Shown: one piece after another, positions 15,634-61,455 of the stretch
How the letters are laid out: every line of letters begins with the position of its first letter
Numbering within the stretch: position 1 is the first letter of the stretch
Assembly: GCF_004010195.1 (NCBI RefSeq)
Contig: NC_057722.1
Span: 36,372,638 to 36,436,637 of the forward strand
Source: Chiloscyllium plagiosum
Taxonomy: Eukaryota
Length of the DNA: 64,000 nt
Reading direction: 5' to 3'
Notes under the pieces: generated by a model
The model's database searches: none
What the model saw: the letters and a program-made list of their open reading frames with translations, nothing else
Told to the model about the DNA's origin: nothing
Program-made: the position numbers and the translations under genes

Positions 15634-15834
15634 TTTGGGGATGCCAGTGTTGGAATGGGGTGTACAAAGCTAAAAATCACAACACCAGGTTATAGTCCAA
15701 CAGGTTTATTTTGGAAGCAGTAGCATTCGGAGTGTTGCGGCCACCTGATGAAGGAGCAGCACTCCGAAAGCTAGTGCTTCCAAATAAACCTGTTGGACTA
15801 TAACTTGGTATTTTGAGATTTTTTAATTTTGTAA
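15634..15834 (+). mobile_element. Fold-back Penelope-like terminal insertion with hammerhead core
   Basis: Inverted arms (gttatagtccaacaggtttat / ataaacctgttggactataac), CTGATGA..GAAA core at 15745-15769, TSD acttacaga/acttataga. Confidence 0.75.
15745..15773 (+). ncRNA. Minimal type I hammerhead ribozyme motif
   Basis: CUGAUGA-A-GGAG-cagca-CUCC-GAAA-GCUA with palindromic AGCU helix III, CUA triplet and 3-bp helix I (cac/gug). Confidence 0.6.
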
Positions 15835-16547
15835 ACTTATAGAGAACAGGAGATCACTCAGCCTCTTGTGGCACTGAGCCAGGTTCTCTTGAGTTGCACA
15901 TGGGAACTGACCTCTCCAGCCAGGATGCCTTCATCATTTGGGATGGCCTTGTTAGTATACATAGGGAAATGAACTTCATTTCTGTCTTGAACAGCCTTTA
16001 AAAGAATCACTAGGGAGACACTGCAAAAGCACGGCACTTTATTTTGTGTGGTCTCTGATATTTCTGGGGGTAGGTGAAGATAATGAACAGATGTGAGATG
16101 CTGTTGGGTTTCAGAGAGTGAACTACTGCCTGGGTATCTAACTATGCTGCCTGGATGGTGGAGGCCAGAAGGTCCTCATTGAGGCCAAAACCTGCGGACT
16201 CTCACCCATAAAATCTGACAGTGCAACGACACGTGAATATGTAATGACCTTAGAAGAATATATGTTTTCTTGAATTCCCACTTGGCTCCTGAACAGAAGT
16301 TTCTCCAGCTTTTGAGCCTGTGTCCACACTTAACTCACAAAAAGAATTCTGCTGAATGTTTCAATCATTTCGATGTAACTTCCTGCACGTGGGCAGGAGA
16401 TTTTTTTTTCCCCAATGGGGGAGGGGCAAAATATCAAGTTTGCCCACCAGAAAACAAATGGGATAGGAAGGCCTTAGCCCATGAATAAATGGAATTCTCA
16501 TTATACCATATATTTAAAGGATCTAGTGGTCCATACCTGTGATCAGA

Positions 16548-16750
16548 GCTGAAAATGTGTTGCTGGAAAAGTGCAGCAGGTCAGGCAGCATCTAGGGAAC
16601 AGGAGAATCGACGTTTCGGGCATAAGCCCTTCTTCAGGAATCCTGAAACGTCGATTCTTCTGTTCCCTGGATGCTGTTTGACCTGCTGCGCTTTTCCAGC
16701 AACACATTTTCAGCTCTGATCTCCAGCATCTGCAGACGTCACTTTCTCCT
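16548..16750. mobile_element. Fold-back Penelope-like terminal insertion with hammerhead core
   Basis: Inverted arms of about 75 bp. 16-bp TSD catacct(g/a)tgatcaga at 16532-16547 and 16751-16766. Confidence 0.8.
16610..16637 (-). ncRNA. Minimal type I hammerhead ribozyme motif (sense in NCEH1 intron 2)
   Basis: Minus strand CUGAAGA-A-GGGC-uuau-GCCC-GAAA-CGUC with palindromic ACGU helix III and GUC triplet. Confidence 0.65.
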
Positions 16751-17575
16751 CATACCTATGATCAGACTTCTATCCATAATTTGTCTAAGAACTGGATGAA
16801 GCGCTTCAGCTAGGTTTCCGAGAAGAGCACAGATATCTTTTAAATATGTTTTGAACAGACTGTTGTTTTGAACACGGAGGAAACCTGTCCTGGATACAAA
16901 TATGGCATACTGTCAGTTCATGTCAGCAAGGAAATGTAATGAAGGCATGCGGGGTAAAATCTTACGTTCTCAGCCATATTTTACAAATTACAAGTGGTTA
17001 GTGGAACCTTGAGATGCAACAAGTTTTGTGATTTATTATTCCAAGCTATGGTTACCCTTAATTTTATACATTTAATAAGTGCACAAGGCTGCTGAGGAAA
17101 ATAAGGATATCAACAAGTTTTGTAACAGCAGAAAAATATCCTCCACTGCAAAAGGAATGAATACCCAAAGAATAAACAAGAAAATTGTTTTGAAAACAAA
17201 ATTAAACTTGCCAATCAACATTCCAAACTTTTAAGAACTTGAATGCTATAGCCCAGGCCAGTTACATAAGATACCTTACTGCCATAACCCACAATGTGAG
17301 AAGTCTGTCAATGCACTGTTACCATCAATGGGCTCCAGTGAAAGTGGCCTTCTTCCTCAATATAAATATATAGGCATTACCTACAAACACAATTCTTGAT
17401 CAATCACCACAAAATTGGGATTACACTTTAAGTATGCCTTTGCAAAGTAAATGGGCTTCTATATCATTTGTCTTTAAACTCCAGCAGCTGAGGTAACTTA
17501 AATTAAATTAAAATGGTCTGTAAGAATATTTGACAGGAATAGTAAGTTCACTACTCCCATTTGCAATATACTTAC

Positions 17576-17801
17576 TTGCACTTCCTAAAGCCCAGCCTCC
17601 ACCGTGTATGTAAATAATACTTCGCTTTAGTTCACCATCGACCTTCTTGGGTTCAAACACTCTGACTTGCACTCCATCAAATGATGTATCCGAAACTTCA
17701 ACTGTTTCACTTGATTGAGGGGCAAGCATCTCAAACATTGTAATGACAAAATTCAGAGCCTTTAGGTGATGACCAAGTCCTACTTGCTGCGCCAGATGAC
17801 A
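17576..17801 (-). CDS. NCEH1: NCEH1 exon 2, containing the HGGG oxyanion-hole motif
   Basis: tttccccag acceptor, CHLAQQVGLGHHLKALNF...DTSFDGVQVRVFE...IYIHGGGWALGSA, gtaag donor. 226 nt, ends in phase 1. Confidence 0.95.
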
Positions 17802-20007
17802 CTGGGGAAATAAAATAATGGAATTTCATCATTAATTGTATCCAAATTTAACCTTCCTCACATTTAGATGTGAAGCCAAAAACTACTTTAAATTTCATTT
17901 AAAACTATGCACTAATTATCCAACTGTCCATAAATAAAATTAATCAAAAATAAATTCAGTTTAGGGATTGTGCAGATATTTCACAGTAATTCATTAAACA
18001 TACATATTTTGTTTCAACGGAAATGTTTGCTAAAAAGGTTTTCTGTCAACATAATCTAGACTGAAAGATATGAATGGTCACGTGAACTACATGGAAGACT
18101 CAGTTATTTGTTTTCAATTCAAATCACCTTGTCTTTCTTCACTCAATGTAAGAAAACATGTTTACGAACACTTAACCTTTAATCAGATATCCTCAGGCGA
18201 GGATAGGTACAGACCTTGATTTTAGTAAACACTGCAATCGAAGGCAGGTTTGTCTACAAGTCGCTACATAAAACCTGACTTGTTCTTTATGTCTTTGTAA
18301 TTGACATTAAACCCACTCAAAGAAAATACTTCAATCAAGTGGTCAATTAAATAATTTGCAAAGTGAACTGTACATCTTAAAACTTTGGAATTCAGAACAC
18401 AATTATGATATAGCCCCACAAAGTGAATCAGCGAGCTATTTAAAAAATAATTTGTTATGGTTGGTCACCTATAAGATTTGGTGCCACTTCTAAACATGAA
18501 CTTATTCTGTGCAGGTATAACAATATTCGTGCATATTTATGAACTTGCAAAAACGTGACACTAAGCTGGATAGATGGATAAAGAGTTATTCAACAGAGAT
18601 TTAAAAAGAATATCTGAAAATTGTGTGAAATGTACACTTACTTTAATTATCTTTATTCAGGATCTCTAAGCTCACAAGTTTGTAAGAATGTTAAGTGAAT
18701 GATGTCTTGATTTAAGTCAGTGACATATTCAATTGATTCCTAAAATGAAACATTTGCTCAAATCAAGCTAAGGTAGAATTTTCTCCAACTTCCAGGCATT
18801 ACCAATCCATTTCCCAACTGCTGAGCTGAGATGATCCAGGACTACAAGTCAGACTTCATAGTTAATTTATACTTCAGGTTATAGGGAAATGTATTTTATA
18901 GATGACACAATGACACAACTGGAAATTAAATTTAATAAGCAAAACTCATTGGTGGGTTGATCCAAAACCAACAGCTAGGGGTAAAACTATAACAGGAAAA
19001 TAAGTGCTATTTGATCTCCCCTCAAGCACTTTGCTTAGTTTCACAGATAGTACAGTATTCAAGTACTAATTCTCTTGACAGGACTGGACTGGTCTTACAC
19101 TGAACTGTTATGGAATAAACAAACAAAAGTCGTGTTGTTCCACAGATCTTGAAATTTGCTAAAAGCAGACATGTTGCTCAAACCTTTGATCTTGCATTAG
19201 TCAGGACAAATGCAAGAATTTCAAATTTTAAAAAAATCAAATGAATTTATATCACTAATGAAAAGGGTGACTGTTCGATTGGCAGTCTGATTAGCTAAGG
19301 CTCTGCCATGAGAAAACAATGGGGATCTATAAATGCCAAATCTTCTGGGTAATTCAAAGCAAGCATGTGTCTGGAACGTATGCCCTTAGGTATAGACTTT
19401 TGTGATTGTTTTAAAGAAGTGACATATTTATCCTGATTAGTGCAAGACAAAAAACAACTTTGGTACAGAATTGTACAGTAAGGATGGTGAAATCACACAG
19501 TGTGAAACTCAACAATTATGCACTTCAAAAGAACTTGAATATCAAAATATTCAATGTACATGCATATTTCAGAATTGAGTGGATATCAATTCATTTTCTG
19601 TTCGTTGGATTTTCAGATCATTGCCATCCTAAGGTCCCTTTCCACTGAGGGATAGATGGCCTGGTTTTGGCATCTGCAATGTTGACACGCTGTACCATTA
19701 CGAGAGAAGTTTTAAAGCCAGGAGATCACACTTAAGCCACTGAATAGAGGAAACCAAATATTACAACACTATAATGTAGCATCAACATGACATTGTTGGA
19801 ACAGATGTGACAGAAACTGTAAAATAGAATGCAGAGCTTCCAGGAAGCAGGACCTGAGGAAGTGTACTCAAAAAAACCATGGTGGGATCTATTTTGGATA
19901 CTAATGGAGAGCTCTTATATCCCCTGAAATGAAAACAGAGAAATCAAGTAAACAGAAAGGGAATGGAGGGATGTGGACAATATGTAGGCAGATAGGATTA
20001 GGTTTGA

Positions 20008-20300
20008 GTGGCACGGTGGCTCAGTGGTTAGCACTGCTGCCTTACAGCACAAGGGACCAGGGTTCAATTCAAGCCTTGGGCAACTGTCTGTGGGGAGTTT
20101 GCACATTCTCTCCGTCTCTGTGTGGGTTTCCTCCCACAGTCCAAAGATGTGCAGGTCAGATGAATTGGCCGTGTTAAATTGCCCATATAGTGTTAGGTGC
20201 ATTCGTTAGGGATAAATGTAGGGGAATAGGTCTGGGTGGGTTACTCTTCAGAAGGTCAGTGTGGACTTATTGAGCTGAATGGCCTGTTTCCACACTGTAG
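20008..20300 (+). mobile_element. HE1-like V-SINE
   Basis: Colinear with 5452-5760. Confidence 0.85.
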
Positions 20301-20916
20301 GAACAAGACAGCCCCTGATTGGGGCTGTTAATCTAGTCCAATCAGGGAGCCCTGGCTGACACAAAAGAGTTGATGTCAGGGATATTGTGACCTTTAATGC
20401 CTGAGTAAGTACCATTGTGAAATACTATGTATTTCATAGAATCCCTACAATGTGGAAACAGGCCCTTCTCCCCAACAAGTCCATACTAATCCTCCGAAGA
20501 GTATCCCACCCAAACCCATTCTCCTATCCTACTAACCTATAGTTACCCCTGACTAATGCACCTAACCTACACATCCCTGAACATTATGGACCTCAGTAAG
20601 AATTCCCTGACTAGATTAACAGTCCCAATCAGGGAGCCTCTTTGCTGACTATGATGCCATTCTAAATCTTAGATTAAAGAGGTTTAATCTAAGTACACTG
20701 TCTTCCATTTTGAATATTCCCCCTCCTCCCCATCTTGAAATGTCTTGGTTTTCTATTTTCTGTGATTCACACCTACCATTTGAAATAATCTTCAGAGGAC
20801 AGCATCCCATTACCAATCAGCCTTCATTTAGTGGCTCTGTAACTCAGTGATTACAGCATTGAACTTGTATACCAGGCGTCATGAGTTTGAGTCTCACTGG
20901 GGCATGTATACATTTT

Positions 20917-21264
20917 GGGATGGCACAGTGGCTAAGTGGTTAGCAATGCTGCCTCACAGCACCAGGGACTACGGTTTGATTCCAGCCTCGGGTGACTGTG
21001 TGGAATTTGCACATTCTCCCCTGTGTCTGCGTGGGTTTCCTCTGGGTGCTCCAGTTTCCTCCCACAATCCTAGGGTGTGCAGGTTAGGTGAATTGGCCAG
21101 GCTAAAATTACCCATAATGTTCAGGGATGTGTATTAGGTGCATTATTCAGGGGTAAATATAGGTTAGTAAGGTAGGGGAATGGATTTGGGTGGGTTACTC
21201 TTCGGAGGGTTGGTGTGGACTTGATGGGCCAAAGGGCCTGTTTTCACACTGTAGAGATTCTATG
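20917..21264 (+). mobile_element. HE1-like V-SINE
   Basis: Colinear with 5452-5760, ending gattctatga. Confidence 0.85.
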
Positions 21265-21340
21265 AAATACATAGTATTTCACAATGGTACTTACTCAGGC
21301 ATTAAAGGGCCACAATATCCCTGACATCAACTCTTTTGTG

Positions 21341-21481
21341 GATCAGTGGTGCTGGAAGAGCACAGCAATTCAGGCAGCAGCCGGGGACAGGTGCCTGTCC
21401 TCGGATGCTGCCTGAATTGCTGTGCTCTTCCAGCACCACTGATCCAGAATCTGGTTTCCAGCATCTGCAGTCATTGTTTTT
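21341..21481. mobile_element. Fold-back Penelope-end insertion, hammerhead region absent
   Basis: Near-perfect palindrome 21340-21445 plus tail ccagcatctgcag. Perfect 15-bp TSD atcaactcttttgtg at 21326-21340 and 21482-21496. Confidence 0.8.
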
Positions 21482-22103
21482 ATCAACTCTTTTGTGTCAG
21501 CCAGGGCTCCCTGATTGGACTAGATTAACAGCCCTAATCAGGGAACTCTTACTGAGGTCCAGCTAGCTGACCTTGTAAATGGTGTTGTCATTGTAACATC
21601 TACTCTGCATCAATATGCCCCTCTGCTACTGTTAGCATTCCCTTGATATCCCTAGATAACTCCACCATCTGTTCGGTTTGCTTCTCTTGGCCTTTTGTCA
21701 ATAGCATTAAAAATGCTACTTAGGGGTCTTGTAGTGCAATGTCCTTACCTACGAACCAGGTGGCCTGGGTTCAAGTGCCAGCTGCTCCAGAAGTGTATAA
21801 CATCTCTGAACACATTGATCAGTTCTGAAATCATCTCTGACTCAAAACATTTCTCTCTCCACAGATGCTATCAGACTTACTGAGGTTCTCCAGTACCCTC
21901 TGTTCTTAATTCAGGTTTATAACATCCAAAGTACATTGCTTTTAGGACAACACTGGCATTGGTGTTAGCAGCTCCTCTTTGCTGTTGTAAACACCTGATT
22001 CTTTTCAAATATTTATATCTTTCCTTTTCATCCTAAATATTAGGTAATAGCCGCATATGGTGAAGGATCACACAGGATTTTGGTCCCCGGTTTAATAACA
22101 ATC

Positions 22104-22316
22104 CAAAACAACAAAGAACTGTGGAGGATGAAAATCTGACACGTAAGCAGAAATTGCTGGAAAATCTCAGCAAATCTGGCAGCATCTGTGGAGAAAAATA
22201 AGTTAGCATTTCAGGTCCAGTGACCCTTCTTCAGAACAGTCACCCGAAACGCTAACTGATTTCTATCCACAGATGTTGCCTGACCTGCTAAGATTTTTCA
22301 GCAATTTCTATTTTTG
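22104..22316. mobile_element. Fold-back Penelope-end insertion with mutated hammerhead core (minus, 22204-22234)
   Basis: Inverted arms. Minus strand CTGAAGAAGGGTCactgGACCTGAAA. 12-bp TSD ttaataacaatc at 22092-22103 and 22317-22328. Confidence 0.75.
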
Positions 22317-22828
22317 TTAATAACAATCTACTGGGTTCTTCATATTACATTGAGCTAGGAAACCTTATATGACGATCGCCATGTAAGGTAAGACACAGCA
22401 TTCTTGAGACCTGTACCCCACTTTAAGAGATTCCAGTGCAATTCCTGGTGTTAAGGAAGGGGAGTTATCTATCTAGCATCCATTGCAATAGAGTCACCAT
22501 AGTCCTACCGGACAATACATTTGTGTCTCATTAGAGACAGAGAAACAAGAAGAGAAACAAGATGTGGTTGTCAGTGAGTCACAACACCTCAGGCGAAGAG
22601 AGAGGTTGAGAAGACAACTCCTTCATGTTAACTTTCAGCTCATGCGGAAACTGAACTCATGCTGTTGGCAATACTCTGCATTGCAAACCATCTACCCAGC
22701 TAACTGAGTTAACTAACTCTCTACAAAAACTCCCCTACCCCTGGAACAGCGATGTAAGCATGTAATCCCATTAAAACATTTGTTCATTGAATGTGTGTGT
22801 TGCACCTAGGCTAGTACTTCGTGCCCAG

Positions 22829-29210: not shown

Positions 29211-29339
29211 TGGTTCCATTAAAAATAATTCTGCAAGAATGTCAAAGGTGATAGTTTGAACATATACTACAAAAAGCTGTTGCTGTGCAATTTTCAGCTT
29301 GAACTGATTTTCCAGAATAAGATACTGTAGAAAAGCAAG

Positions 29340-31800: not shown

Positions 31801-33043
31801 GGCCCTAGTAGAATATTTCCTTAAAAATGATCTTTAATAGATTAGATCTGATAAAAAAACAAAAGAATGCTGTAAATCACAGACAAAAATAGAAATTGCT
31901 GGAAAAGCTCAGAAGGTCTGGCAGCATCTGTGGTCAGAAATCAGAGTTAATGTTTTGAGTTGCGTGACCCTTCCTCAGAACAAGGAACAAAGCTCCATTT
32001 TAAATTTATGGTTGATTGGCTTATTTGTAGCCTCGCAAAAACAGAGTTGTCTAACTTCAAGAAAGACCTAGCTTATATCTATATTTTGTATGTTTTAAAT
32101 CACATTATTGCTTTCTAATCATTGACAACCTTTGCTGAGTAATAAGAAAGAGAATAACACAAATTTAGAAATAGTCAAAGTAACTGCTAAAAGAGGACAA
32201 CAGGTTGGTTAAAACCACCGTTTATCCTTTGCTAAGAAGGTGAATCAAGTAAAACTCGAAAGTGCATACTGAACCCAAAGGCTGACATTTGTGTGTCATT
32301 AGCACCTTCACACCAACCAAACATTTGGAGAAAGAGCCCAGTAGGCTATCAAAATTAAGTTCTAAACAATATTTATATCCCCCATTAACATTAAGCAGAC
32401 AATTCTCTAATTTTCTGAAGGATATTACTTTGTGCAAATTAACTTTTTCTCTGCTGATAGTTATTGGGCGAAAGTGAGTACTTTATTGGGTGCAAGTGCT
32501 TCGGGCATTCTAATAACAAAATGTTGTATTTTATCAGAACTAACTCCTATGCTTTTAAAATTTTATCAAAATTGTAAACAAAAAGTAGAGATACGCAGCA
32601 GGTGCGGCCAAAACTTGATTTTTTTTCAGGGATATTGATGGGGGTGATGCGTACTTCAATTATTTTCGAACCTCACAGTGGTTCAGTAACTACCGCTTGC
32701 CACTCCTTATTTCATCTACATCATTATTTGTAGGACAATCAACGTGGAACTTTTTCTTCAGCTGTGATTTTATTTGTTTTGGAAAATGTTTTTACTTGAG
32801 AGGAATGTAACATGAAAGATTTACTGGAAGTGATATACACGAATAACGCTGTCACAAGCGACTAGCTGACAAGTGAATGGACAATTCTGAAATTTGTAAA
32901 TCTGTGATACTTTGAAACTGCGAACACGCAAACGCTCTACGTATATTACTTCACTTCAGTCTCGAAAACGAACAGCAGTCAATTGTAAATATGCTATAAC
33001 TATTTAGAAAAGCAGCATCAAGAAAGAGTAATTACAGCATTAC

Positions 33044-40755: not shown

Positions 40756-40880
40756 GAGTTGGAGGTGCCAGTGTTGGATTGGGGTGGACAAAGTTAAAAA
40801 TCACACAACACCAGGTCATAGCCCAACTGGTTTAAATGGAAGTACAAGCTTATGACGTAGTGTTGTGTGACTATTAATTT
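40756..40880. mobile_element. Truncated fold-back Penelope-end insertion inside CR1
   Basis: Same gccagtgttgga..aaaaatcacacaacaccagg sequence as 15640 and 60490. Perfect 12-bp TSD tattttaaaact at 40744-40755 and 40881-40892. Confidence 0.75.
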
Positions 40881-42230: not shown

Positions 42231-42686
42231 CAGTCTTTCATGTCTACTCCCATTCAGTGAGCATAGCTGATCTTATACTTGAATACCATTTTCTTACATT
42301 ATCCTATGTATTCCCTGGTGATTTTAATATGTCAGAATCTATCGGTATCAGTCTTAAACATACAGAAAAACTGAACCTCCACAGTCCTTTGGGTTAAAAT
42401 TGACCACTTCCTGAATAGATTCCTCTTCATTTCAGTCTGAATTACTTTCCCCTTATTTTGAGACTGTGTACCCACTGGCTGTAGATGCCACAAAGAAAAT
42501 ATCCTTCTTGCATCAACCCTATCAATCTTTGTAAGAAGTTTATGTACGTATGTTTAAACGTGATCACCTCTCATTCTTCAAATCTGTAGGGACTGTAGGC
42601 ACAGTTTATTATAAGTCAGTACCCTTATTTAAGAAATTAAATTGGTGAACCTTTTGCTCCAATCATTAATTTTATCTGTTTTGCAG

Positions 42687-43634
42687 ACGACAAGCTCTCA
42701 AAGATCACATAAGGCAAAAGTTTCTGGTGGACATAAGAGAATTTCGGAGATACAGAAGCCCCATTTGGAATCACAAGCTAATTCAGTATCTGATGCACTC
42801 TGCGAGCCAACTGAGCCAACCAACATCACAGATTTACAGCCTACATTAGCCACAGAGACTCTCAACACAGGGAAGCTAGCTCAACTAGCAGCTGCAGCAG
42901 TCCTGAATTTAGCAGAATTTTCTCAAGTGTTGGAAGTTCCTCTAAAACCTGAAGTAGAGTCTTCAGAAGTCCCCATGTTTTTTAATTGCAGTGCACAAAC
43001 TCAAACGTACACAACAGAAGCAAAGATGGAATCGGTTTCAAGTGAGTTAGTAACTATTCATTCAGAGAATCAATCTCAAGATTCAGCTGCAGCTCTGAGT
43101 TCAGATACCCTCCATTGGACAGCCAATGTATTATCTGCACCTGAAGTACTATCGGATACATCTACTGTGCTTGTGAGTTCAGTAGATGTTCCTACAGTGC
43201 CGGCTAATGTTGTGCCCTGTTTATTTACAACATCTGCAGAACTAACATCTGACCAAGTAACTATATCGGAAGAAACTACTTGGATATCTGCAGAAGTGCT
43301 TATTCCAGAAACACAAACTCATTTATCAGCTCCAGTTTTGGGTTCTGAAGAACTGCAATACTCCTCTGCAGGAGGAAAACTGCTTTCATCTCGTAATGAT
43401 CAGGATTTGCCAGGAATGACATTTCCCCAAGATCACAGTTATTTTATGAGTCCTTGCCCTGATATCATCAGGAGAACTCTAGGAAAGAAGCTTGCGTGGG
43501 AGAGAAAGAAGAATGAAGAGCATCGGCAAAAGTTCAGAGTACTCCAACAAAAACTGAAAAGAAAAGAGCAGAAAATTGACAATCTGACAAAAATTATCAG
43601 CCAGCTGAGAGAAAGTAAGATTTGGAATCTGTAG
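42687..43634 (+). CDS. THAP-domain protein exon 3: S/T/E-rich linker, HCF1-binding motif DHSY, C-terminal coiled coil
   Basis: tctgttttgcag acceptor in phase 0, inside the 330-aa ORF. QDHSY is followed by the heptad-rich KLAWERKKNEEHRQKFRVLQQKLKRKEQKIDNLTKIISQL. AATAAA at 43651-43656. Confidence 0.85.
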   Translation, partial: TTSSQRSHKAKVSGGHKRISEIQKPHLESQANSVSDALCEPTEPTNITDLQPTLATETLNTGKLAQLAAAAVLNLAEFSQVLEVPLKPEVESSEVPMFFNCSAQTQTYTTEAKMESVSSELVTIHSENQSQDSAAALSSDTLHWTANVLSAPEVLSDTSTVLVSSVDVPTVPANVVPCLFTTSAELTSDQVTISEETTWISAEVLIPETQTHLSAPVLGSEELQYSSAGGKLLSSRNDQDLPGMTFPQDHSYFMSPCPDIIRRTLGKKLAWERKKNEEHRQKFRVLQQKLKRKEQKIDNLTKIISQLRESKIWNL

Positions 43635-45719: not shown

Positions 45720-48190
45720 TTGCCCTTCAGATTCCCATTTATTTTTTCCCCTCTGACCTTCAACTGATGCCATCTAGTCCTCGATTACCCAATTCTGGAA
45801 AAAAGACTGAGAGCATTCACCTTATCCATGCCTCTCATGATCTTTCTTACTTCTGTAAGACTCCCCCGCTCAGTCTCCTACACTCAAAAGAAAAAAGTCC
45901 TCGTTTGTCCGACCTCTCCCAATAACTTAGTCTCTACAGTCTTGGCAACATCCTTGTAAATCCCTTATGCACACTTTCCAGTTTAATAACATCTTTCCTT
46001 TAGCAAGGTGATCAAAACTGAACACAATACTCCAAGTGTGGCCTCACCAACGTCCTGTACAACTGTAACATAACATCACAACTTCTATATTCGATGTCCT
46101 GATTGAGGAAGGCCAGTGTGGCAAAAGCCTCCTTCACTGCCCTGTCTACTTGTGACTCCACTTTCAGAGAACCATGCACCTGAACTCCAAAACCACTCTG
46201 TTCCACTACGCTCCTTAGGTCCCAACCATTCACCATGAAATTCCTACCTTGATTTGACTTTCCAAAATGCCACACGTCACACTTATCTATATTAAACTCC
46301 ATTTGCCATTTCTCAGCCCACTTCTCCAGCTAATCAAGGTTCTGCTGCAATTGCTGATAACCTTCCTCACTGTCCACAATACTGCCTATTTTTGTCTTCT
46401 GCAAATTTATTATTCATGCCTTGAACATTCTCATCCAAATCAGTGATATAGATAACAAATAACAGTGGTCCCAGTGCCACTCCCTGAGGCACAGCACTGG
46501 TCACAGGCCTCCAGTCTGACAAGCATTCTTTCACTATTACCCTCCTCTTCCTACCAACAAGCCAATTTTGCATCCAATTTGCCAGTTCCCCCAGATTACA
46601 TGCCGTCTAATCTTCCACAGCAGCCTACCATGCAGAAAGTTATCAAAGGCCTTACTGAAATCCACATAGACTACATCAACTGCCCTGCCCTCATAAACCT
46701 TCTTGGTCACTTCATCAAAGAAGTCTAACAAATTTCTTCTGCTCCTCGCATGCTGCCTGACCTGCTGTGCTTTTCCAGCATCTCGGTTTGACTCTGATCT
46801 CTAGCACCTGCAGTCCTCACTTTCTCCCAACAGATTTGTGAGGCATAATCTCCCAAGAACAAAGCCATGCTGTCTACTCTTAATTAAACACTGTCCTTCC
46901 AAATGAATGTGTATCTTATCCCTCTGAATATTCTCCAGTAACTTACCTACCATAGATGTTAAATTTACTGGCCTATAGTTCCAGGCTTTTCTTTGCAGCC
47001 CTTCCTGAATAAGGGCACAACAATCGCTACCCTCCAGTCTTCCAGGACTTCACTTCTGGCAAACAATGATACAAATACATCAGCCAGAGCCTCCACAATT
47101 TTTTCTCCAGTCTCTTATAGGGTTCTTGGATATATCTGGTCAGTACCAGGATATTTATCCACCTTCATACATTTTAATATGTCCAACACCATCACCACTA
47201 ACTTTCCCAAGTTCCCAAGTCATCTCGTCTTTCTCCACGGTAAACACAGGAGAAATATTAATTGAGCACCTTGCCCAGTTTCTGCAGTTCCACATATAGG
47301 TGTCCACTTTGGTCCTGGAGGGGTCCTATTCTCTCTTTAGATATTCTTTTTCCTTTAATATGCTTAAACAATCTCTTTGGATTCACCCTCATCTTCTCTG
47401 CAAAGGCTATTTTGTGCCCCATTTTCACCCTCTTGATTTCCTTCTTCAGTAAACTCTTGTATCCTCTGTATACCTCCCTGGGATTGTTTTGATCCCAGTT
47501 GCCTGTACCTGCGCCATGCATCCTATTTTCTGGTCAAAGCCTCAATATCTCTTGTCATCCAAGGATACCAACTTCTGCCAACCTTGCCCTTCACCCTCAC
47601 AGGAACATATAAACCTTAAATTCTAGCTATCACACTTTTTTAAAGGCCTCCCACTTGCCAGAGGTCCCTTTGTCAGTAAACAAACAATTCCAAACAACCC
47701 CTGCAAGCTCCTGTCAAATTTCATCAAAATTCGCCTTGCCCCAATTTAGAACTTGAACCTGTGAAGCAGTTTTATCCCTCTCTATAAGTACTTTAAAACT
47801 AATATAACTATGGTTACTGGTCCCAAAGTGCTCACCCACTGTCACTTCAGTCACTTGTCCTGCCCTATTTCCCAGGAGTAAGTAAAGTTTTGCCCCTTCC
47901 TGAGTAGGACCCTTTATCTACTGCTTGAGCAAACTTTCCTGAACACTTAACAAATTCCACCCTATCAAAGCCCTTAATGCTATGGCTGTCCCAATCTATG
48001 TTAGGAAAATTAAAATCCCCAACTATGACAAATCAATTGCTCCTGCAAGTCTCCCCAGTCTCCCTGCATATTGACTGTGGGCATATAGTACAACCCCAAT
48101 ATCGTCACCATCCCCATCTTATTTCTTAGCTCCACCCACAAAGCTTCACTCTATGATCTCTTGGTTATTTCATCTCTGACTACTATTGTT
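45720..48190 (-). mobile_element. Long CR1 ORF2 remnant (endonuclease + RT), with a small Penelope-end insert at ~46736-46828
   Basis: [26 protein letters not shown] and LYRTLVRPHLEYCVQF on the minus strand. Confidence 0.9.
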
Positions 48191-53740: not shown

Positions 53741-53744
53741 ATCA

Positions 53745-55150
53745 TAGCTACAGGAATAGTGCCAGAAGACTGTAGGATAGCAAATGTTGTTCCCTTGTTC
53801 AAGAAGGGGGTTGACCCAACCCTGGAAAGTATAGTCTACTTCAGTTGTGGGTAAAGGGTTGGAAAGGATAAGAGCGGACTTATTATCACCTAGAAAGGAC
53901 TAAGTTGATTAGGGATAGTCAACACTGTTTTGTGAAGGGTAGGTCATGCCACACAAACCTTATTGAGTTCTTTGAGAAGGTGACAAAACAGATGATGAGA
54001 GTAAAGTGGTTGATGTGGTGTATATGGATTTCACTCAGGCATTTGATAAGGTTCCCCATGGTAGGCTATTGCACAAAATATGGAGGCACAGGATTGAGGG
54101 TATTTTAGCAGTTTGGATCAGAAATTGGCTAGCTTAAAGAAGGTGGTGGTGGTTGATGGGAAATAATCATCTTGGAGTTCAGTTACTACTGGGTACTACA
54201 AGGATCTGTTTTGGGTCCATTGTTTTATAAATGACCTGGTTGAGGGCATAGAAGGATGGGTTGGTAAATTTGCGGATGACACTAAGGTCGGTAGAGTTGT
54301 GGATAGTGACGAAGGATGTGTAGTTACAGAGAGACGTAAATAAACTGCAAAGCTGGGCTAAGAGGTGGCAAATTGAGTCTAATGTGGAAAGGTGTGAGGT
54401 GATTCACTTTGGAAGGAGTAACAGAAATGTAGAGTACTGGGCTAATGGTAAGATTCTTGATCGTGTGGATGAACAGAAGGATCTCTGTGTCCAGGTACAT
54501 AAATCCTTGAAAGTTGCAACCCAGTTTGATAGGGTTGTTAAGAAGGTATATGGTGTGTTAGCTTTTATTGGTAGAGGGTTTGAGTTTCGGAAACATGAGA
54601 TGATGCTGCAGCTGTACAAAACTCTGGTGTGGCCCCATTTGGAGTATTGCGTACAGTTCTGGTCACCGCATTATAGGAAGGATGTGAAAGATTTAGAAAA
54701 GGTTCAGAGGAGATTTACTATGATGTTGCCTGGTATGGAGAGAAGGTCGTATGAGGAAAGGTTGAGGGACTTGAGACTGTTTTTGTTATAGATGAGAAGG
54801 TTGAGAGATGACTTAATTGAGACATACAAGATAATTAGATGGTTAGATAGGTTGGACAGTGAGAGCCTTTTTCCTTGGATGGCAATGGCTAACACATGGG
54901 GTCATAGCTTTAAATTGAGAAGTGATTGGTATATGACAGATGTCAGAGGTAGTTTCTTTACTCAGTAGTAGGGATGTGGATGGCATTGTCTGCAACACTA
55001 GTAGATTCGCCAACTTTAAGGGCATTTAAATGGTCATTGGATAGACATATGGACGAGAATGGAATAGTGTAGGTTCGATGGGCTTCAGATTAGTTCCACA
55101 GGTTGATGCAACATTGAGGGCCGAAAGTGCTGTGCTGTAATGTTCTAAGT
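53745..55150 (+). mobile_element. CR1 RT to 3' end
   Basis: SQHCFVKGRSCHTNLIEFFE, FADDTK and LYKTLVWPHLEYCVQFWSPHY. Confidence 0.9.
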
Positions 55151-55249
55151 ACTCATCCATGCTGTAAGTTCATCACCCTTATTCCTGACAATTCTTGTGT
55201 GAAAAGAGCCACACTTCACACTGACTGCAACTTTGCGTTATCAATTGTC

Positions 55250-56450
55250 TATCTTTTCTCACAGACTCTCTGTATACTGTATCTGCCTATTCAACAGATA
55301 CCTCATCCACTGATCTGTAGTTCCAGTTCTCATTCCCCTGTCAAATTAAACCCTCGCAAAGATTTCTAGCATACCTCTCACCCAGGATATTGGTACCCCT
55401 CCAGGCTTACTAACCCTTGGTACTAGTAGTAACCCTGAGATTACTACTCTGCTCATCCTGCCTTTTAGCTTACAACCTAACTCGCTATATTCACCTTTCA
55501 GTTCTAATGTCGAAAGGTTGGGAGTGTTTTGGAAAGTAGCAAAGGGCTACCACAGGATTGATTAAAAATGGAATGACAGCAAACCAACCAGAAATCTCAA
55601 AACCATTAAGAGCTTTTACAGGTATGCAAAAAGGAAAACAATAGTTAAACTAAGCACTAATCCCTTAAATGCAGAGACAGGAGAAATTACCCTGAAGATT
55701 CAGAAACAGCAGAGACATGGAACAAATATTTTTTCTGTCTTCACAATAGAAGACCTGTTATAAAACAGAAATAAAGTGAAATCTAGGGCTATTAAGAGTG
55801 ACTAATAAGGTAGACAAGGGAGACCAAAAGCTGTAGTACACTTGAATTTACAAAAGACATTTGATAAGGTACGACACAAAAAGTTAATAGGCAAAATAAG
55901 GACTTGGGGAGTTTGGGGTGTTAAAATGAATATATTAAAATGAATAGAGATTGCTTAATGGACAGGAGAAGAAAATGGCCATCAATGATATATATTCAGG
56001 TTGGCAGGCTAGGATCAGTGCTCTATAAAATCTATGTATGAGTCAGAAAAAGACTTGATATATCTGGTTGCTGATGATTCAAATCCAGGTGCCAATGCAA
56101 GGAAATCATAGAGTCTGCAAAGAGGTAAATACAAGTGAGTGGGAAATAGTGGCATATGTCAAGTGTAATGTGGAGGTTTATGAGGTTATTTGCTTTGGCC
56201 GTAAGAACAAAAAAGCAGAATTGTTTTTAAGAAGTGTGGATCTTGTACATGTTACTGTTCAGAAACTTGTGTATCCCCATATTGGGGAATACCATTAGTA
56301 GGTAAATACATCAAGCAATTAGGAAAGTAAATGGGATATTAGCCTTTATTTCCAGTGGACAAGAGGTCCTGAATAAAGAAATATTGATGCACATGTGCAG
56401 GACTTTGGTGACACTACACTTTAAATATTGAGTCCAACTTGGTTATTTAA
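55250..56450. mobile_element. Old CR1 remnants
   Basis: ttgaatttacaaaagacatttgataagg (LDFxKAFDK-like) and aagtgtaatgtggaggtttatgaggtt blocks. Confidence 0.55.
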
Positions 56451-56569
56451 AGAAAAGAAACAATCTTTGGAAAGTTTTAAACACTGCCAGACAAAAATTT
56501 AATCGTGGTCACTTCTATATCTAAACTGACTGTCATGCACATGTATATTTACAGCATGCAATTGACTAT

Positions 56570-56810
56570 CATTTTCTACCCTACACCAGATTTGCAAACT
56601 ATTCTTGATCTCTTCAATTCTGCATACAAAAAAAACTCACGTTGTCCTTGAATGTTGCCAAAACAAAAAACATTTCAACCTAAGCCTGGTCAATCAAATA
56701 TTCCATCCAAATATGCTGAAATGGAAACTCTGGAATATGTTGAGTACTTCCCATTGCTTGGCAGCCACCTCTCACAAAAGACTGCCATTGGTGAGGAGTA
56801 AGGCATTTGA
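56570..56810 (+). mobile_element. Probable RTE-clade LINE RT fragment
   Basis: Reads with frameshifts as LSLNVAKTK...ETLEYVEYFPLLGSHLSQKTAIGEE, resembling the RTE RT motif LExVxxFxYLGSxLS. Confidence 0.5.
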
Positions 56811-57409
56811 CTTCGATATCTATTATATCCCTGGTACCTCAGACATACCAAATTATTAAATCTGAATAAAATTGCTATAAGTTTCATTAGCACCGCACAT
56901 AACCCTCTGCACCCTCACGAGCTTCCATCGTTCTCATGGTGCAAAATCACAGTAGATTTAGTCACTATTCATGGTGATGATTTTCTCCTAGACAATGAGT
57001 ATTTCTCCAAATTTCCGGTTGTCTTTAAAGAAGATGTAAGTTAAAGAATATTTTGTGTGCATTAGTGGTAGATGCAATGTGTACACTATTCAGTATACTT
57101 AATAATTGGATCCCAAATGTTTGAAACGTTTTGCCACAATAAACAACATTCTCATGGTTCAATATCCCTCGTGAGTTGATTCAACAAAATACATTCCCTG
57201 GAAGAACAATTGGTGTCAGATTATTCTCCAGATTTGGGGCAAAATGTAGTGGCATCGAGAGCCAGGATTTGTGATTTTCCAATTGTACATATATCAATCT
57301 TGAATTTTTTGGTGCTGATCTATTCCTCTTTTGCCCCTTAGGTTTACATAATGTGTGTGAACACATTAGCATAATTGCTCATCTTTACTCACCAGTGCCA
57401 AAATGCTTA

Positions 57410-57555
57410 AAAACCGAAAAAATTGCAGATGCTGTAAATCAGAAACAAAAACAGAAACTGAGGAAGAGTCACCTGACCCGAAACGTTAACTTTGATTTTT
57501 CTGCATAGGTACTGCCAGACCTGCTGAACTTTTTCAGCAACTTCTGTTTTTGTTA
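57410..57555 (+). mobile_element. Fold-back Penelope-end insertion with hammerhead-like core 57458-57487
   Basis: CTGAGGA-AGAGTC-acct-GACCC-GAAA-CGTT, and inverted termini aacaaaaacagaa/ttctgtttttgtt. Confidence 0.7.
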
Positions 57556-58239
57556 CAGAATGTTTTTAAAAAGTTGTTAATTTAAAGGGACACTCTTCAG
57601 CAGGCTTTATGACTACCAGGAGCTGTCTTATTCTTGAACGGAGTCGTTTTTAAAAGTACAAAATAATTATTCTCTGGTAACTGTAGCAAACTCTAAATCC
57701 CGAATTAGAGACGTGCTGTCCCCAATTTACTGTTGGGGACATCTGGCCTATTTAAAGGTCATTGCACACGTGAAGTGGTTTACTCCATTCTTTTAAAACT
57801 AAAGGAAACAAGAACAGAAATTGCTGGAGAAAATCAGCAGATCAGCCAGTATTTGTTGACAGATCTAAGAGCAGCGTGAACGTTAATGTTTTTAATCCAG
57901 TGACCCTTCTTCAGAACGAGTTTAACAATTTCCGCTTTAGTTTCCGATCTTCAGCATCTGCAATTACTTGTTTTATTATAATCGAAAAATAAAGAGAATT
58001 TCAGTTCTGTAGTTTAAGTTATAAACAGCGTCGAAGTAGTATATAATAGGCTGAGATTGTGTGGTGTCGACTTTTCAAACTGAATTGGATATTTGAATAT
58101 GTTTCACAAGTTAATGAACCTGAACAAAGGAGGTTTCTTTCAATACAGTGTTTAGCACTCAGTGATAGCTCACTACACTTCGAATTACAGATGTTATGAA
58201 ATATTCACTATTCCAAATTTCCAGCATGTCAAAGTTTGG

Positions 58240-58627
58240 ATTTTCCGAATGCCGTGGGGGGGGTCATCTTTATCGGATCGGGAGGGTACGACGGTTCACC
58301 GACCAATCAGGTACGGCCTTGGTGCCCCCAGCTCCAATCATCGGCCGCAGAATCTTAACTGTTCATGGGATGACCAATCAGAATAGGACTTTCCAATTAT
58401 CTCCTTGCGTCTTCGTAGACCAATCAAAGAGGCGTTTAGAAGGGTGGCCCGAATTTTGAATTTGGTTGTTGAGGACGCGGTGGGCTCAGGTTCCAAAGCC
58501 GTTATAAGGCGAGAGAAAGCGCCAAATTTAAACCGGAGCTTTGCTTTTTTTTTATTCGCGATACCTGTCCGCGGTTTTGTGGGTCGCTTGGATTGAGACG
58601 CAGCCACGACTTACTGCCGGCGTGACA
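58240..58627 (+). promoter_or_regulatory. ECT2: ECT2 promoter/5'UTR: CpG-rich, multiple CCAAT boxes, CHR and E2F sites
   Basis: CCAATCA at 58303, 58334, 58374 and 58420. TTTGAA at 58455-58460 preceded by GC-rich TGGCCC and a 4-nt spacer. GCGCCAAA 58519-58526 followed by TTTAAA 58527-58532. Confidence 0.8.
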
Positions 58628-58757
58628 ATGGCCGAGTGGGGTTCAGTGGCCGTTAGCGCCGGCAATGTTCTGGTAGATTCATCCGGTTTCGATTCCAGAC
58701 TCGCCGATTCCTCCAAGGAGCACCTCCTGATCGAGACTGTATCGGACGCTGTGGAAG
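58628..58757 (+). CDS. ECT2: ECT2 (RhoGEF, cytokinesis) first coding exon; gene presumably continues beyond the window
   Basis: ACAATGG Kozak context. MAEWGSVAVSAGNVLVDSSGFDSRLADSSKEHLLIETVSDAVE resembles the human ECT2 N-terminus (MAENS...LADSSIFDSKVTEISKENLLIGSTSYVE). G|gtaacg donor. ECT2 neighbours NCEH1 in human. Confidence 0.8.
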
Positions 58758-59164
58758 GTAACGCGAGTGTTTGACAGAGGTTCCAGTTCCAATGCCCGAA
58801 AGCATGTTACTTTCCAATCCCCTGGGCCTCATTAGTACCTGATAACGATCCAAACTCCATCAGTAGTCATCTTCAACGGAAGAGGCTACAACGGCTATTC
58901 TGACGATAAAATATAATCTTATGACTCCATCTCTTCAAGATACAGCACAACGCTTAGTTTAGTATTCATATTGCCCGATGTAAATCTTTGTAGCAAGTTG
59001 ATTAATGCATACCCAGGCTGAGGTTACTGCAATGTTTACTGTAGGCAAGTATTATATGTCACTTTATGCTGTTAGAATAATTAAAGCTTGCTTGTCAAAA
59101 AGCCACTTAGCTTTTGGTGCCTACGTCAATCAAGAAACCATCTAAACAAACTCCACTTTTCAGT

Positions 59165-59600
59165 AATATAGAGCCTGAGATGTATAGCACGGAAACAAAC
59201 CCTTTGGTCCAACTCGACCTTGCCCAAATATCCTAAATTAATCTGGACGCATTTGGCTCTAAACCCTTCCTATTCATTTACACACTGAGATGCCTTTTAA
59301 ATGTTGTAATTGTACCCGCCTCCACCACTTCCTTTAGCACCTCATTCCATATAGGCACCACCCTCTCTGTGAAAAAGTTGCTCCTGAGGTCCCTTTTAAA
59401 TTCCACCCCAATCCCCACCTTAAACCTATGCCTTCTTGTTTTGGACTTCTCTGCTTTGGGGAAAAGAGCTTGGCTATTCACCACATCTAAGCCCTGCATG
59501 ATTTTACGAGCCTCTGACGCTCCCATCCTATTCAGCCCCTTTTAGCTCAAGCTCTCCAATCCTGACATCCTTGTAAATCTTTTCTGAGCACGTTTCAGAA
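59165..59600 (-). mobile_element. CR1 3' fragment in the ECT2 intron
   Basis: FFTERVVPIWNEVLKEVVEAGTITTFKRHL. Confidence 0.85.
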
Positions 59601-59769
59601 AATAAAGCAGTTTCCATGCTGTAAAACTCTATAACTGAGTGTGCTAGAAATTTGAAACAAAGACAGAAAGTACTGGAGAAACTTAGCAGGCTTGGCAGTA
59701 TGTTTAGAGAGGAAAACTTAACAATGCTGCCAGATATGTTTTCCATTACATTCTGTTTTTAAGCACTTT

Positions 59770-60420
59770 AGTGTTTAGCCAGTAAACACGTGGCTAAGGG
59801 ATTGGTGTGGGAAAGAGGGATTCCACGTTGTGGGGCATTGGCATCAGTTTTGGAACCGGGGGATCTGTACCGTTGGGACGGTCTCCACCTGAACCGATCA
59901 GGTACTAATGTTCTAGCAAAAAGGATAAATAGGGTGGTCAGTAGAACTTTAAACTTCTGAGTTGGGGGAAAGTGAAAGCGAAAGCGACAGGGAGTATGGA
60001 GTTAAATGGAAAGATAAGTGGCAGGATAGCATATGTGCAGGCAGATTTAAACTTGAGACAGACTGGCAATGCAGCAAAAAGGAAGGATAACTTAGGACAT
60101 CTTATGACTTCCAATATCTCGAATGATAAGAAAGTTAATATTAAGGCACTTTACCTGAATGCTCGTAGCATTCATAACAAAACAGACGAACTAATGGCAC
60201 ATAACTTAGGACATCTTATGACTTCCAATATCTCTAATGATAAGAAAGTTAACATTAAGGCACTTTACAAATGCTACGAGCATTCTGGTAACAAAGCAGA
60301 CGAACTAATGGCACAGATCATCATGAATAATTATGATGGGGTAGGCATCACAGAGACGTGGTTACAAGGGGGTCAGGACTGGCAGTTAAACATCCAAGGG
60401 TTTTCAACTTATCGAAAAGA
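59770..60420 (+). mobile_element. CR1 fragment spanning the ORF1 esterase end and ORF2 endonuclease start
   Basis: WLRDWCGKEGF..DGLHLNRSG (SGNH-type esterase), then LYLNARSIHNK..DEL..VGITETWL. Confidence 0.85.
60087..60314 (+). repeat. 114-bp tandem duplication
   Basis: ataacttaggacatcttatgacttccaatatctc... begins at both 60087 and 60201. Confidence 0.9.
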
Positions 60421-60489
60421 CAATGGTCCATGTCGGTACCAACGATATAGATGAAAGAGGAAAGAGATTATAATGAGGAAATCATGTGA

Positions 60490-61455
60490 AGGAGCCAGTG
60501 TTGGACTGGGGTACACAACATTAAAAATCACACAACACCAGGTTATAGTCCAACAGGTTTATTTGGAAGCACTAGCTCCTTCATCAGGTAGGAGTGGGAC
60601 AGAATCTAAATACACAGAATTGATAGCAAAAGATCTCAATGTCATGCAACTGAAATAATATATTGAACAAACCTAGATTGCTGTTAAGTCTTTCATCTTT
60701 TAGAATGGGTTGCAGGTTTCGGTTCATTAATATGTAAATCCCAGAACTTCTCTTAAGTCACATTCACAAGATAACTTAAGGTTTTATAAAAAAAAAGTGA
60801 CATCTCAGCTCAGACAATGCATTAAATGTGTGAGGTCTATATCCCAATCTTGAGTCAGACTGTTTCTATTTCAAAAATAGGAATTCATAAAATATTACAT
60901 GGATTGACTGCCTGCAGATTGTGCATTTTTTGAGCAAAATAGAATGTATCTGCTAATATAATTCTGCAAATGCAAATTCACCCCATAGACTTATATGCGT
61001 GTGTGCGCGTACATGAGAGAGAGAGGGTGTTAGTGTGAGCATGTGACTGTGTATGTGTGAGTGTGAGAGCGCGAGAGAGTGTGTGTTTGCGTATGTGCGT
61101 GCGTAAAGTGGGTGTGGGTGTGATGGAGTATATGCCTGTGAGAAGATGTGTGTGTGGGTATGAGTGTGGGCGGTATATGTGCGTATGTGTATGAGCGAGC
61201 GCGTGTGTATGGGAGAGGGTCTGCATGAGTGTCTGAGTATGTAAGAGTGTGTATGTTTGAGAGAGTGTATAGTGTAGTGGGGTCACCTCCTAAGGTACCG
61301 TTTGAGGTAATCCTAATGGGTACCAAACTTGGCTATCAGCCTCTGCCCTGCCATTCTGCTTTGTTACATATCCCAAAATCCACTCGGGGGGATGGTCACC
61401 CGAAGATCCAAGGCCGAATGTCCCTGACTGTGTAGTGTTCCCTGATTGGCAGGGC
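60490..61455 (-). mobile_element. Penelope-like retroelement 3' portion: GIY-YIG C-terminal remnant, CA-rich tract and pseudo-LTR
   Basis: Minus strand 61455-61310 reads, with frameshifts, LPIREH..SQGHSALDLRVTI..QRLIAKFGTH, resembling the PLE endonuclease C-terminus. It ends in cctgatgaaggagc..tagtgcttccaaataaacctgttggactataac, shared with 15634-15834. Confidence 0.7.

What the first reader, a model, noticed from the sequence alone, without database searches (positions are those of the whole stretch)
15634..61455. Dispersed fold-back insertions with minimal hammerhead-ribozyme cores, from several Penelope-like families
Seen: more than ten short (90-220 bp) elements share Penelope-type terminal sequence. 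Many fold back on themselves and have 9-16 bp target-site duplications (15634, 16548, 21341, 22104, 40756, 46736). CUGAnGA-A-stem II-GAAA cores are recognisable at 15745(+), 16610(-) and 57458(+), and are decayed at 1461(+), 9040(+), 22204(-), ~31960(-), ~57890(-) and 60575(-). Helix III is a loopless palindrome (ACGU or AGCU). Established: Penelope-like elements carry minimal type I hammerheads in their pseudo-LTRs, thought to cleave as dimers, and often have an inverted 5' pLTR. Inference: this genome carries a dense population of tiny ribozyme-bearing hairpins. They are either severely truncated PLE insertions or a non-autonomous retrozyme-like class.
Basis: partly seen in the sequence, partly recalled or inferred. 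Interest (0 to 1): 0.7.

Follow-up and report, generated by a model that had tools for sequence, protein, structure and literature searches.

The report
Penelope hairpins marking the RNA start
These 100-300-base hairpins are real, very common one-off leftovers of three Penelope-type jumping-gene families rather than a self-copying ribozyme family, and their inner ends pile up at the element's predicted RNA start, so they likely record how these poorly understood elements insert.

Summary
The elements are real, but only 7 of 14 insertions in the window fold back, and only the core at 15745 passes a strict minimal-hammerhead descriptor. They are 3' ends of three autonomous Penelope-like families (A, B, C), each linked to GIY-YIG coding sequence, and A and B also to RT. 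In 1.55 Mb sampled without regard to content, 128 of 392 insertions were fold-backs (about 280,000 genome-wide by extrapolation). Of these, 123 junction classes were distinct, 116 had exactly one tailed arm and 73 had TSDs (null 2 of 122). They are therefore made afresh, not amplified. Inner ends pile up at an Inr-like A 30-31 nt below a TATA-like box, 4-8 nt before the ribozyme core, with an excess untemplated G (cap-like). The ribozyme cut site shows only a 1.4-fold excess. Best model (inferred): both target nicks prime inside the mRNA's 5' UTR, both cDNAs run towards the capped end and are joined head to head. The inverted-pLTR-plus-tail anatomy is published; I found the run-off model in no held paper. 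This scan noted it before on other DNA (731 notes, at least 49 genomes).

The parts
15633..15835 (+). Family A fold-back: inverted tailed arm (ends at about +15) joined to an untailed sense arm starting at about -4; intact minimal hammerhead at 15745; TSD 8-9 bp with 1 mismatch
16548..16750 (-). Family B fold-back: sense arm starts at the Inr-like A (-4), core at 16637(-); tailed partner arm joined through a CAGG-ATTCCTG palindrome; 16-bp TSD
21341..21481 (.). Family B fold-back joined at about +35, no hammerhead core; 15-bp TSD
22104..22316 (-). Family C fold-back; tailed arm starts at -3, decayed core at 22234(-); 12-bp TSD
40756..40880 (-). Family A fold-back: tailed arm from +23 plus a 30-nt second arm, no core; 12-bp TSD
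57408..57554 (+). Family C fold-back: short tailed arm plus a sense arm starting at the core (57458); no TSD found
57804..57978 (-). Old family C fold-back: arm from -3 on the minus strand plus a short tailed arm on plus; decayed core
46736..46827 (+). Family B single tailed arm from +30, no core, 9-bp TSD with 1 mismatch; lies inside another (LINE-like) repeat
1454..1585 (+). Old B-like single tailed arm from -7, decayed core at 1461
9037..9131 (+). Old family C single untailed arm from -3, decayed core
31854..31984 (-). Family C single tailed arm from -3, decayed core
21850..21950 (+).
59633..59716 (-).
60481..61456 (-). 5'-truncated family A Penelope-like element: broken GIY-YIG C-terminal coding stretch, 3' UTR, TATA-like box, core at 60587 with stem II deleted, tail

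Best explanation
The hairpins are one-off insertion by-products of three endonuclease-bearing Penelope-like retrotransposon families, each likely made when both nicked target strands prime reverse transcription at two start sites inside the 5' UTR of the element's mRNA, and the two short cDNAs likely run towards the predicted capped RNA start just upstream of the hammerhead and are joined head to head. SHOWN: family membership, copy-specific junctions, one tail per hairpin, 10-17-bp TSDs, the pile-up of inner ends at an Inr-like A 30-31 nt below a TATA-like box, the G excess before that A, and an ORF that begins about 37 nt after the tail (family B). ESTABLISHED (PMC11167929): a PLE protein cleaves and extends both strands and initiates at two internal sites that delimit the tail. 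INFERRED: that the Inr-like A is the transcription start, that the G is copied from the cap, that the two arms are separately primed, and that microhomology in the hammerhead stems helps joining. The ribozyme is a passenger in these copies and is predicted to be unable to fold in hairpin RNA.
For: Link to PLE ORFs: A, B (relatives of the RT stretch carry PF00078 and several also PF01541), C (GIY-YIG only). Long EN-bearing copies also carry inverted ends at many distances. Sample of 160 x 10 kb: 128 fold-backs, 123 junction classes, 116 with exactly one tail, TSD in 73 of 128 versus 2 of 122 in re-paired flanks. Per-base stopping hazard at Inr +/-2: A 0.077, B 0.105, C 0.139, versus 0.012-0.018 across the core-to-stem III stretch and 0.004-0.014 from 8 nt above the Inr upwards; the peak persists in 248 junction-confirmed arms (0.16-0.17). 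TATA-like modes at -38 (A), -35 (B), about -34 (C) in long copies. Whole-genome exact counts for young B: 21,160 start at or before A(-4); the preceding base is C 15,396, G 3,444, A+T 2,320. Without the 1,054 AGG-palindrome junctions G is 51% of non-template bases versus 26% expected. In independent RNA reads of a coded organism, 100 loose ends and 2 of 4 opposite-strand joints fall exactly at that A (passenger copies). Tailed arm reaches further in 36 hairpins, untailed in 57, tie in 23, which a single self-primed cDNA cannot give. The hammerhead fold costs 21-29 kcal/mol in hairpin RNA versus 3-4 in a lone arm.
Against: No RNA 5' end was observed: both read lays report no place where many molecules begin or end. 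The Inr positions were first picked by eye from related data, so the peak test is partly post hoc. Only 63 of 128 hairpins have an arm within 3 nt of the Inr, and more than half of their arms end further downstream. The B box (TTTATC) is not a canonical TATA, and D. virilis Penelope has a TATA-less internal promoter (PMC2377424). Microhomology can bias junction bases (control rows are mostly A), so part of the G excess may not be cap. One shared RNA template is not shown: shared rare variants are B 17 of 173 (null mean 2.1, but minor subfamilies could explain it; no A>G dominance) and A 0 of 84. Family C has only 12 long reference copies and 15 fold-backs.
Confidence: 0.72

Rival explanations
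1. Ordinary random 5' truncation with inversion; the pile-up reflects RT stalling or microhomology annealing in the hammerhead stems rather than the end of the RNA.
For: Many junctions use 1-11-nt microhomology in stem II or the AT/ATT palindromes. The hazard inside the ribozyme (0.012-0.018) is already 3-6 times that downstream of it (0.002-0.005).
Against: A structure stop is expected at the 3' side of a helix (about +31), not at its 5' edge (own reasoning). The hazard falls about tenfold or more just upstream of the Inr-like A in all three families, 30-31 nt from a TATA-like box, with a G excess.
Confidence: 0.13
2. Self-priming: one cDNA (or an antisense template, as proposed in PMC3846280) folds back at a palindrome and copies itself.
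For: Short palindromes at junctions are common (1,054 AGG-ATTCCTG junctions). B arms share rare variants more than re-paired arms (17 versus 2.1).
Against: The unpaired centre should then always belong to the tailed (first) strand; it does in 36 hairpins and belongs to the untailed arm in 57. A arms share 0 of 84 rare variants.
Confidence: 0.07
3. The templates are hammerhead-cleaved RNAs, so the cDNAs stop at the cut site.
For: 20 of 520 arms end at cut+0..+2 versus 8.6 expected (p=6e-4, window chosen post hoc). Genome-wide 391 starts at +28 versus 275 at a control position.
Against: The excess is not significant in junction-confirmed arms (8 versus 4.4, p=0.08) and is small in young B arms (1 of 169 at +28, 3 at +29). 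CpG decay breaks alignments there. Many +28 junctions read AGG-AATC or AGG-ATTC, which is stem I microhomology. Most arms run through the cut site. PMC11167929 found unprocessed RNA the dominant substrate.
Confidence: 0.04
4. A self-amplifying, non-autonomous retrozyme- or MITE-like hairpin family.
For: Very high copy number, narrow size (median 193 bp), and a few recurring junctions (4 classes shared by 2-3 copies; repeats among the top hits).
Against: 123 junction classes in 128. The same junction occurs on different subfamily backgrounds. There is a continuum to kb-long inverted copies. Most arms lack the upstream box, each transcript strand has at most one sense core, and 69 of 128 have none.
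Confidence: 0.03

Closest known systems
EN+ Penelope-like element insertions with an inverted 5'-truncated pLTR and a 30-40-bp tail (Pen2a_Av, PMC3846280; overview in PMC8557442)
   Same: Head-to-head inverted pLTR, tail on one end, TSD, palindromes at the junction, TATA plus Inr-like motifs in the pLTR, RT plus C-terminal GIY-YIG.
   Different: Here about a third of insertions are reduced to two pLTR arms alone (125-290 bp), at about 83 per Mb, and their inner ends pile up at the Inr. The passages I read explain inversion by self-priming on an antisense template, which the orientation count does not fit.
PAc (Poseidon of Anolis) in vitro mechanism, PMC11167929
   Same: Two internal RT start sites delimiting the tail; both strands cleaved and extended; hammerhead not needed for insertion.
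   Different: In PAc the ORF starts in stem II and the start sites lie in the ORF; in family B they lie in the 5' UTR (ATG about 37 nt after the tail). The main text read does not address inverted copies or 5' run-off.
Minimal hammerheads of metazoan PLEs, PMC4209133
   Same: CUGAnGA, bulged base before stem II (37 of 38 hits), palindromic helix III, mostly solo copies attributed to truncated PLEs, and pairs 100-700 bp apart on opposite strands.
   Different: Here stem I begins at or within a few bases of the predicted first nucleotide of the mRNA; activity was not tested.
Non-LTR retrozymes (bioRxiv 10.64898/2026.07.22.740005; PMC7229834, listing only)
   Same: PLE-derived, non-coding, type I hammerhead.
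   Different: Retrozymes are head-to-tail tandem units with a ribozyme in each unit; these are head-to-head, copy-specific and usually lack an intact core.
L1 twin priming and retroviral minus-strand strong-stop DNA (both recalled, not from a call)
   Same: Two primers on opposite strands giving an inversion with a TSD; a short cDNA that runs off the RNA 5' end.
   Different: Priming here is at two fixed internal sites about 35 nt apart, with neither a poly(A) nor a tRNA primer; the product is integrated directly.

Membership tests
EN+ Penelope-like element | RT coding sequence upstream of the same pLTR | tested here: met
   A: RT fragments in L034, L057. B: L128 stretch with YIDD; 59 relatives, many with PF00078. 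Not shown for C. Direct Pfam scans of the RT fragments gave no hit.
EN+ Penelope-like element | C-terminal GIY-YIG endonuclease | tested here: met
   tblastn links for A, B, C; PF01541 on L128 at E=0.0017, below the gathering cut-off; no hit on 3 other EN peptides; PF01541 on relatives.
EN+ Penelope-like element | Optional 30-40-bp tail and inverted 5' pLTR | tested here: met
   Bimodal 3' ends; 116 of 128 fold-backs have one tail.
EN+ Penelope-like element | Intact full-length ORF in this genome | not tested
   Only broken or partial copies were read.
Neptune clade | Zn-finger-like Cys motif between RT and EN, and RT phylogeny | tested here: inconclusive
   C-x4-5-C-x2-C motifs precede GIY-YIG in A and B peptides; no tree was built.
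Minimal type I hammerhead | CUGAnGA / GAAA core, stem II, palindromic helix III, short stem I | tested here: met
   38 descriptor hits versus 0-1 in shuffles; stems change in a compensatory way between families (GGAGC/GCUCC, GGGC/GCCC, GGGUC/GACCC; CAC/GUG, AUUC/GAAU, AGUU/AACU). In the window only 15745 passes.
Minimal type I hammerhead | Core better conserved than flanks | tested here: inconclusive
   Non-CpG core versus downstream match to modal base: B 1430/1467 versus 4700/5024; A 463/488 versus 1616/1754. Subfamily differences and post-insertion decay were not separated.
Minimal type I hammerhead | Self-cleavage (dimer or protein-assisted) | not testable with these tools
   Folding only: hairpin RNA disfavours the fold by 21-29 kcal/mol.
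Non-LTR retrozyme | Head-to-tail tandem units, each with a hammerhead | tested here: not met
   Head-to-head arms; at most one sense core per strand in 128 of 128 fold-backs. No genome-wide tandem search was run.
Non-LTR retrozyme / MITE-like family | Shared fixed structure amplified from master copies | tested here: not met
   123 junction classes among 128 fold-backs.
Non-LTR retrozyme | Circular RNA intermediates | not testable with these tools
   The poly(A) single-cell library cannot show them; only 3 and 5 reads with go-back joints.

The most novel reading that the evidence does not exclude
The Penelope pseudo-LTR works like a retroviral U3-R-U5: TATA-like box, cap site, hammerhead and (in family A) a used poly(A) site at +55/56, followed by the two RT start sites. 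RT primes only near the mRNA's 5' end, makes a strong-stop-like cDNA and must jump to the RNA's 3' end to copy the rest of the element. The hundreds of thousands of tiny hairpins are integrated strong-stop products whose jump failed. Supporting hints: poly(A) on 587 reads upstream of both start sites and same-strand jump junctions, two of five near the Inr. Read-through of tandem copies explains long insertions equally well.
Probability: 0.3. Interest if true: 0.8.

Novelty: new variant of a known kind. Interest (0 to 1): 0.5.

Why it matters
How Penelope-like elements make their inverted ends and one-sided tail is an open question (PMC8557442 and PMC11167929 both say further steps are unvalidated). 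If the model holds, this genome stores roughly 280,000 natural single-event records that map the RNA start to the base and favour two-strand priming over self-priming, and the existing PAc in vitro assay can test it directly. It also warns that dense hammerhead or microRNA-hairpin hits in such genomes are mostly passive Penelope debris, not ribozyme genes.

Tried and rejected
Rfam scan: no hammerhead hit, only microRNA look-alikes below gathering. Best-hit genome searches select copies like the query, so they were not used for breakpoint statistics. Nucleotide all-versus-all extension to find long copies was confounded by other repeats. Pfam missed 6 of 7 PLE peptides. The PDB sequence search gave 2 chance hits. 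Cut-site stop as the main route: rejected. Splice acceptor at the pile-up (as for the D. virilis intron, PMC4209133): considered because C has CAG|TT and a second peak at -2, but B has no AG there; not excluded for C. Single-RNA origin from shared A>G changes (lead from e1-10280452): not reproduced. Run search: no RNA holder listed. Run X20 laid 0 reads, so no test. Neither lay showed a transcript start. Rows dropped: 12 of 555 arm hits unresolved and further overlaps collapsed, leaving 520 sample arms; 14 of 83 long copies excluded as references because of deletions, N runs, duplication or false calls. Singles include arms of long inversions counted twice, so 392 is an upper bound on detected insertions. 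The sample could not be enlarged beyond 160 stretches.
Full report
Numbering: position 0 is C3 of the CUGAnGA core, on the element's sense strand. An 'arm' is one copy of the element's terminal region.

1. Observation. The window (G000:C13:36372638-36436637, in a 3.56-Gb genome) holds 14 insertions of three terminal-sequence families, here A, B and C. Seven fold back and seven are single arms. Cores start at 15745(+), 16637(-), 22234(-), 57458(+) and 60587(-). A strict descriptor (core, stem II, 2-nt palindromic loop, U-H, at least 3 bp of stem I) accepts only 15745 in the window. It gives 38 hits in the 1.55-Mb sample against 0,0,0,0,1 in five dinucleotide shuffles, so the motif is far above chance. 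The host is likely a shark: the closest proteins to one RT stretch are from carpet sharks (inference).

2. Source elements. 60481-61456(-) runs from a broken GIY-YIG C-terminal stretch through a 3' UTR into the family A end. Thirty genome hits to that stretch extend into RT fragments, and many carry an inverted pLTR at their 5' end at varied distances. Family B arms sit 150-360 nt downstream of GIY-YIG coding sequence, and L128 continues into an RT stretch whose 59 relatives mostly carry PF00078 and in several cases PF01541. Family C arms link to GIY-YIG sequence in L044, L148 and L182. Direct Pfam support is weak: 1 of 7 peptides, below cut-off. Three B copies continue past the tail into shared sequence, with an ATG 37 nt later in L067, so both 3' end classes lie in the 5' UTR of the next unit.

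3. Unbiased sample. I took 160 stretches of 10 kb at round coordinates of large contigs (1,546,835 non-N bases). They hold 520 arms in 392 insertions, 128 of them fold-backs (A 27, B 86, C 15; median 193 bp, 5-95% 125-290). Extrapolated to 3.4 Gb this is about 860,000 insertions and 280,000 fold-backs (rough, and singles are over-counted). 3' ends are bimodal (about +85-95 and +120-130). TSDs, mostly 10-17 bp, occur in 73 of 128 fold-backs versus 2 of 122 re-paired flanks. 116 of 128 have exactly one tailed arm, and there are 123 junction classes.

4. Inner ends are not random. Long copies show a TATA-like box with modes at -38 (A, TATAAA), -35 (B, TTTATC) and about -34 (C), followed by an Inr-like A at -8, -4 and -4. 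Per-base stopping hazard within 2 nt of that A is 0.077, 0.105 and 0.139, against 0.012-0.018 across the ribozyme and 0.004-0.014 further upstream. In 248 arms whose 5' junction is confirmed by an adjacent inverted arm or a TSD the peak is 0.16-0.17, so it is not an artefact of poor upstream references. 63 of 128 hairpins have at least one arm within 3 nt of the Inr; the other arms mostly stop earlier. Exact whole-genome counts for the young B motif: 21,160 copies include A(-4) and 8,077 match one subfamily's sequence to -10 (subfamily variation contributes to this drop). The base before the A is C (template) in 15,396, G in 3,444 and A or T in 2,320 by subtraction. 1,054 of the G cases are AGG palindromic junctions and 1,064 are TG. 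Without AGG, G is 51% of non-template bases versus 26% expected from composition. An extra G is what copying a cap gives (recalled from L1 and R2 work); microhomology may supply part of it. RNA reads of coded run X19 (same species label as DNA runs that hold 90% of the query's words; not shown to be G000's species) are 95% passengers. Their loose ends (100 reads) and two of four opposite-strand joints fall at L177:5949, which is A(-4). This confirms the genomic breakpoint, not the transcription start.

5. Cut site. 20 arms end at cut+0..+2 versus 8.6 expected, but only 8 versus 4.4 among confirmed arms. Genome-wide there are 391 starts at +28 versus 275 at a matched control position, many of them stem I microhomology joints. 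Cleaved RNA is at most a minor template, in line with PMC11167929.

6. One cDNA or two. A self-primed hairpin would leave the unpaired centre always on the tailed strand. Among 116 one-tail hairpins the tailed arm reaches further in 36, the untailed in 57, with 23 ties. Two separately primed cDNAs fit, as does the in vitro finding that a PLE protein extends both strands from two start sites. Shared rare variants exceed the null in B (17 of 173 versus 2.1, maximum 6) but not in A (0 of 84), so a single RNA molecule is not shown.

7. Ribozyme function in the copies. 69 of 128 hairpins have no intact CUGAnGA...GAAA on either strand, and none has two on one strand. Forcing the hammerhead fold costs 29 and 21 kcal/mol in the two window hairpins tested, versus 3.4 and 4.3 in the lone arms. 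Compensatory stems across families indicate selection in the source elements; nothing indicates function in the hairpins.

8. Poly(A). On a long family A copy, 587 reads carry untemplated poly(A) at +55/56, about 14 nt after AATAAA/ATTAAA, with strong sense bias; 251 more have A-rich loose ends after the tail. This site lies upstream of both RT start sites, which motivates the strong-stop reading. No such site was among the six loose-end rows shown for B (105 not shown, and that stretch lacks the tail). Five copies show ORF-start sequence followed on the same strand by pLTR or 3' UTR sequence, two of them starting at about +2 and -8: likely template jumps.

9. Literature. Seen: PMC4209133 parts 1-2 of 4, PMC11167929 parts 1-2 of 4, bioRxiv 10.64898/2026.07.22.740005 parts 1-3 of 5, passages of PMC3846280, PMC8557442 and PMC2377424; other papers as search listings only. 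No supplements were read; Fig. S2 of PMC11167929 (genomic end coverage of PAc) could already show a 5' pile-up. The inverted pLTR, tail, TSD, TATA/Inr motifs and minimal hammerheads are all published. Searches returned no PLE-centred paper that uses 'strong-stop' or 'twin priming' (0 occurrences in the PLE papers listed) or describes these shark families; subscription papers and Repbase/Dfam are not covered. Earlier notes of this scan reach the same reading on other genomes; they are not counted as evidence.

10. Verdict. Real and abundant; members of a known class in a miniature, transcription-start-bounded form that I did not find described. Confidence: PLE origin 0.97, made afresh 0.95, two-strand priming about 0.8, run-off at a capped start about 0.7.

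Noticed in passing
window 60423-62956 and L032 (G000:C13:17.35 Mb): At least 2,534 bp are 99.96% identical at a second place on the same contig: a recent duplication or an assembly duplicate.
   Followed up: partly
window 11047-11664 (-): Last exon of an alpha/beta hydrolase (PF07859, E=6e-19), resembling arylacetamide deacetylase (name recalled).
   Followed up: partly
window 42633-43634 (+): 333-aa stop-free, Ser/Thr/Glu-rich frame ending in a coiled-coil-like stretch; no Pfam hit.
   Followed up: partly
window 63026-63288: Near-perfect 263-bp hairpin (125-nt arms, 97%) not matching families A-C; possibly an inverted insertion of another repeat.
   Followed up: no
window 20008-21561: Nest of SINE-like copies in inverted and direct orientation, with a duplicated segment (20360-20589 / 21112-21340, 91%) into which the 21341 hairpin is inserted.
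   Followed up: no
L137:4984-4985 (family A, +55/56): Used poly(A) site inside the pLTR, downstream of the hammerhead and upstream of both RT start sites.
   Followed up: partly
family B and C tail ends, e.g. L128:7631, L133:3519: The tail often ends in a pyrimidine tract plus CCTAG or TTTAG, resembling a 3' splice site just before the ORF; no intron was tested.
   Followed up: no
L047:1870-2160, L050:1-360, L199: A fourth PLE-like GIY-YIG family (IPCKDC...HYIGQTGR) unrelated to the A-C ends.
   Followed up: no
L044: Kb-long family C fold-back with GIY-YIG sequence on both arms, into which family A sequence is inserted or joined.
   Followed up: partly
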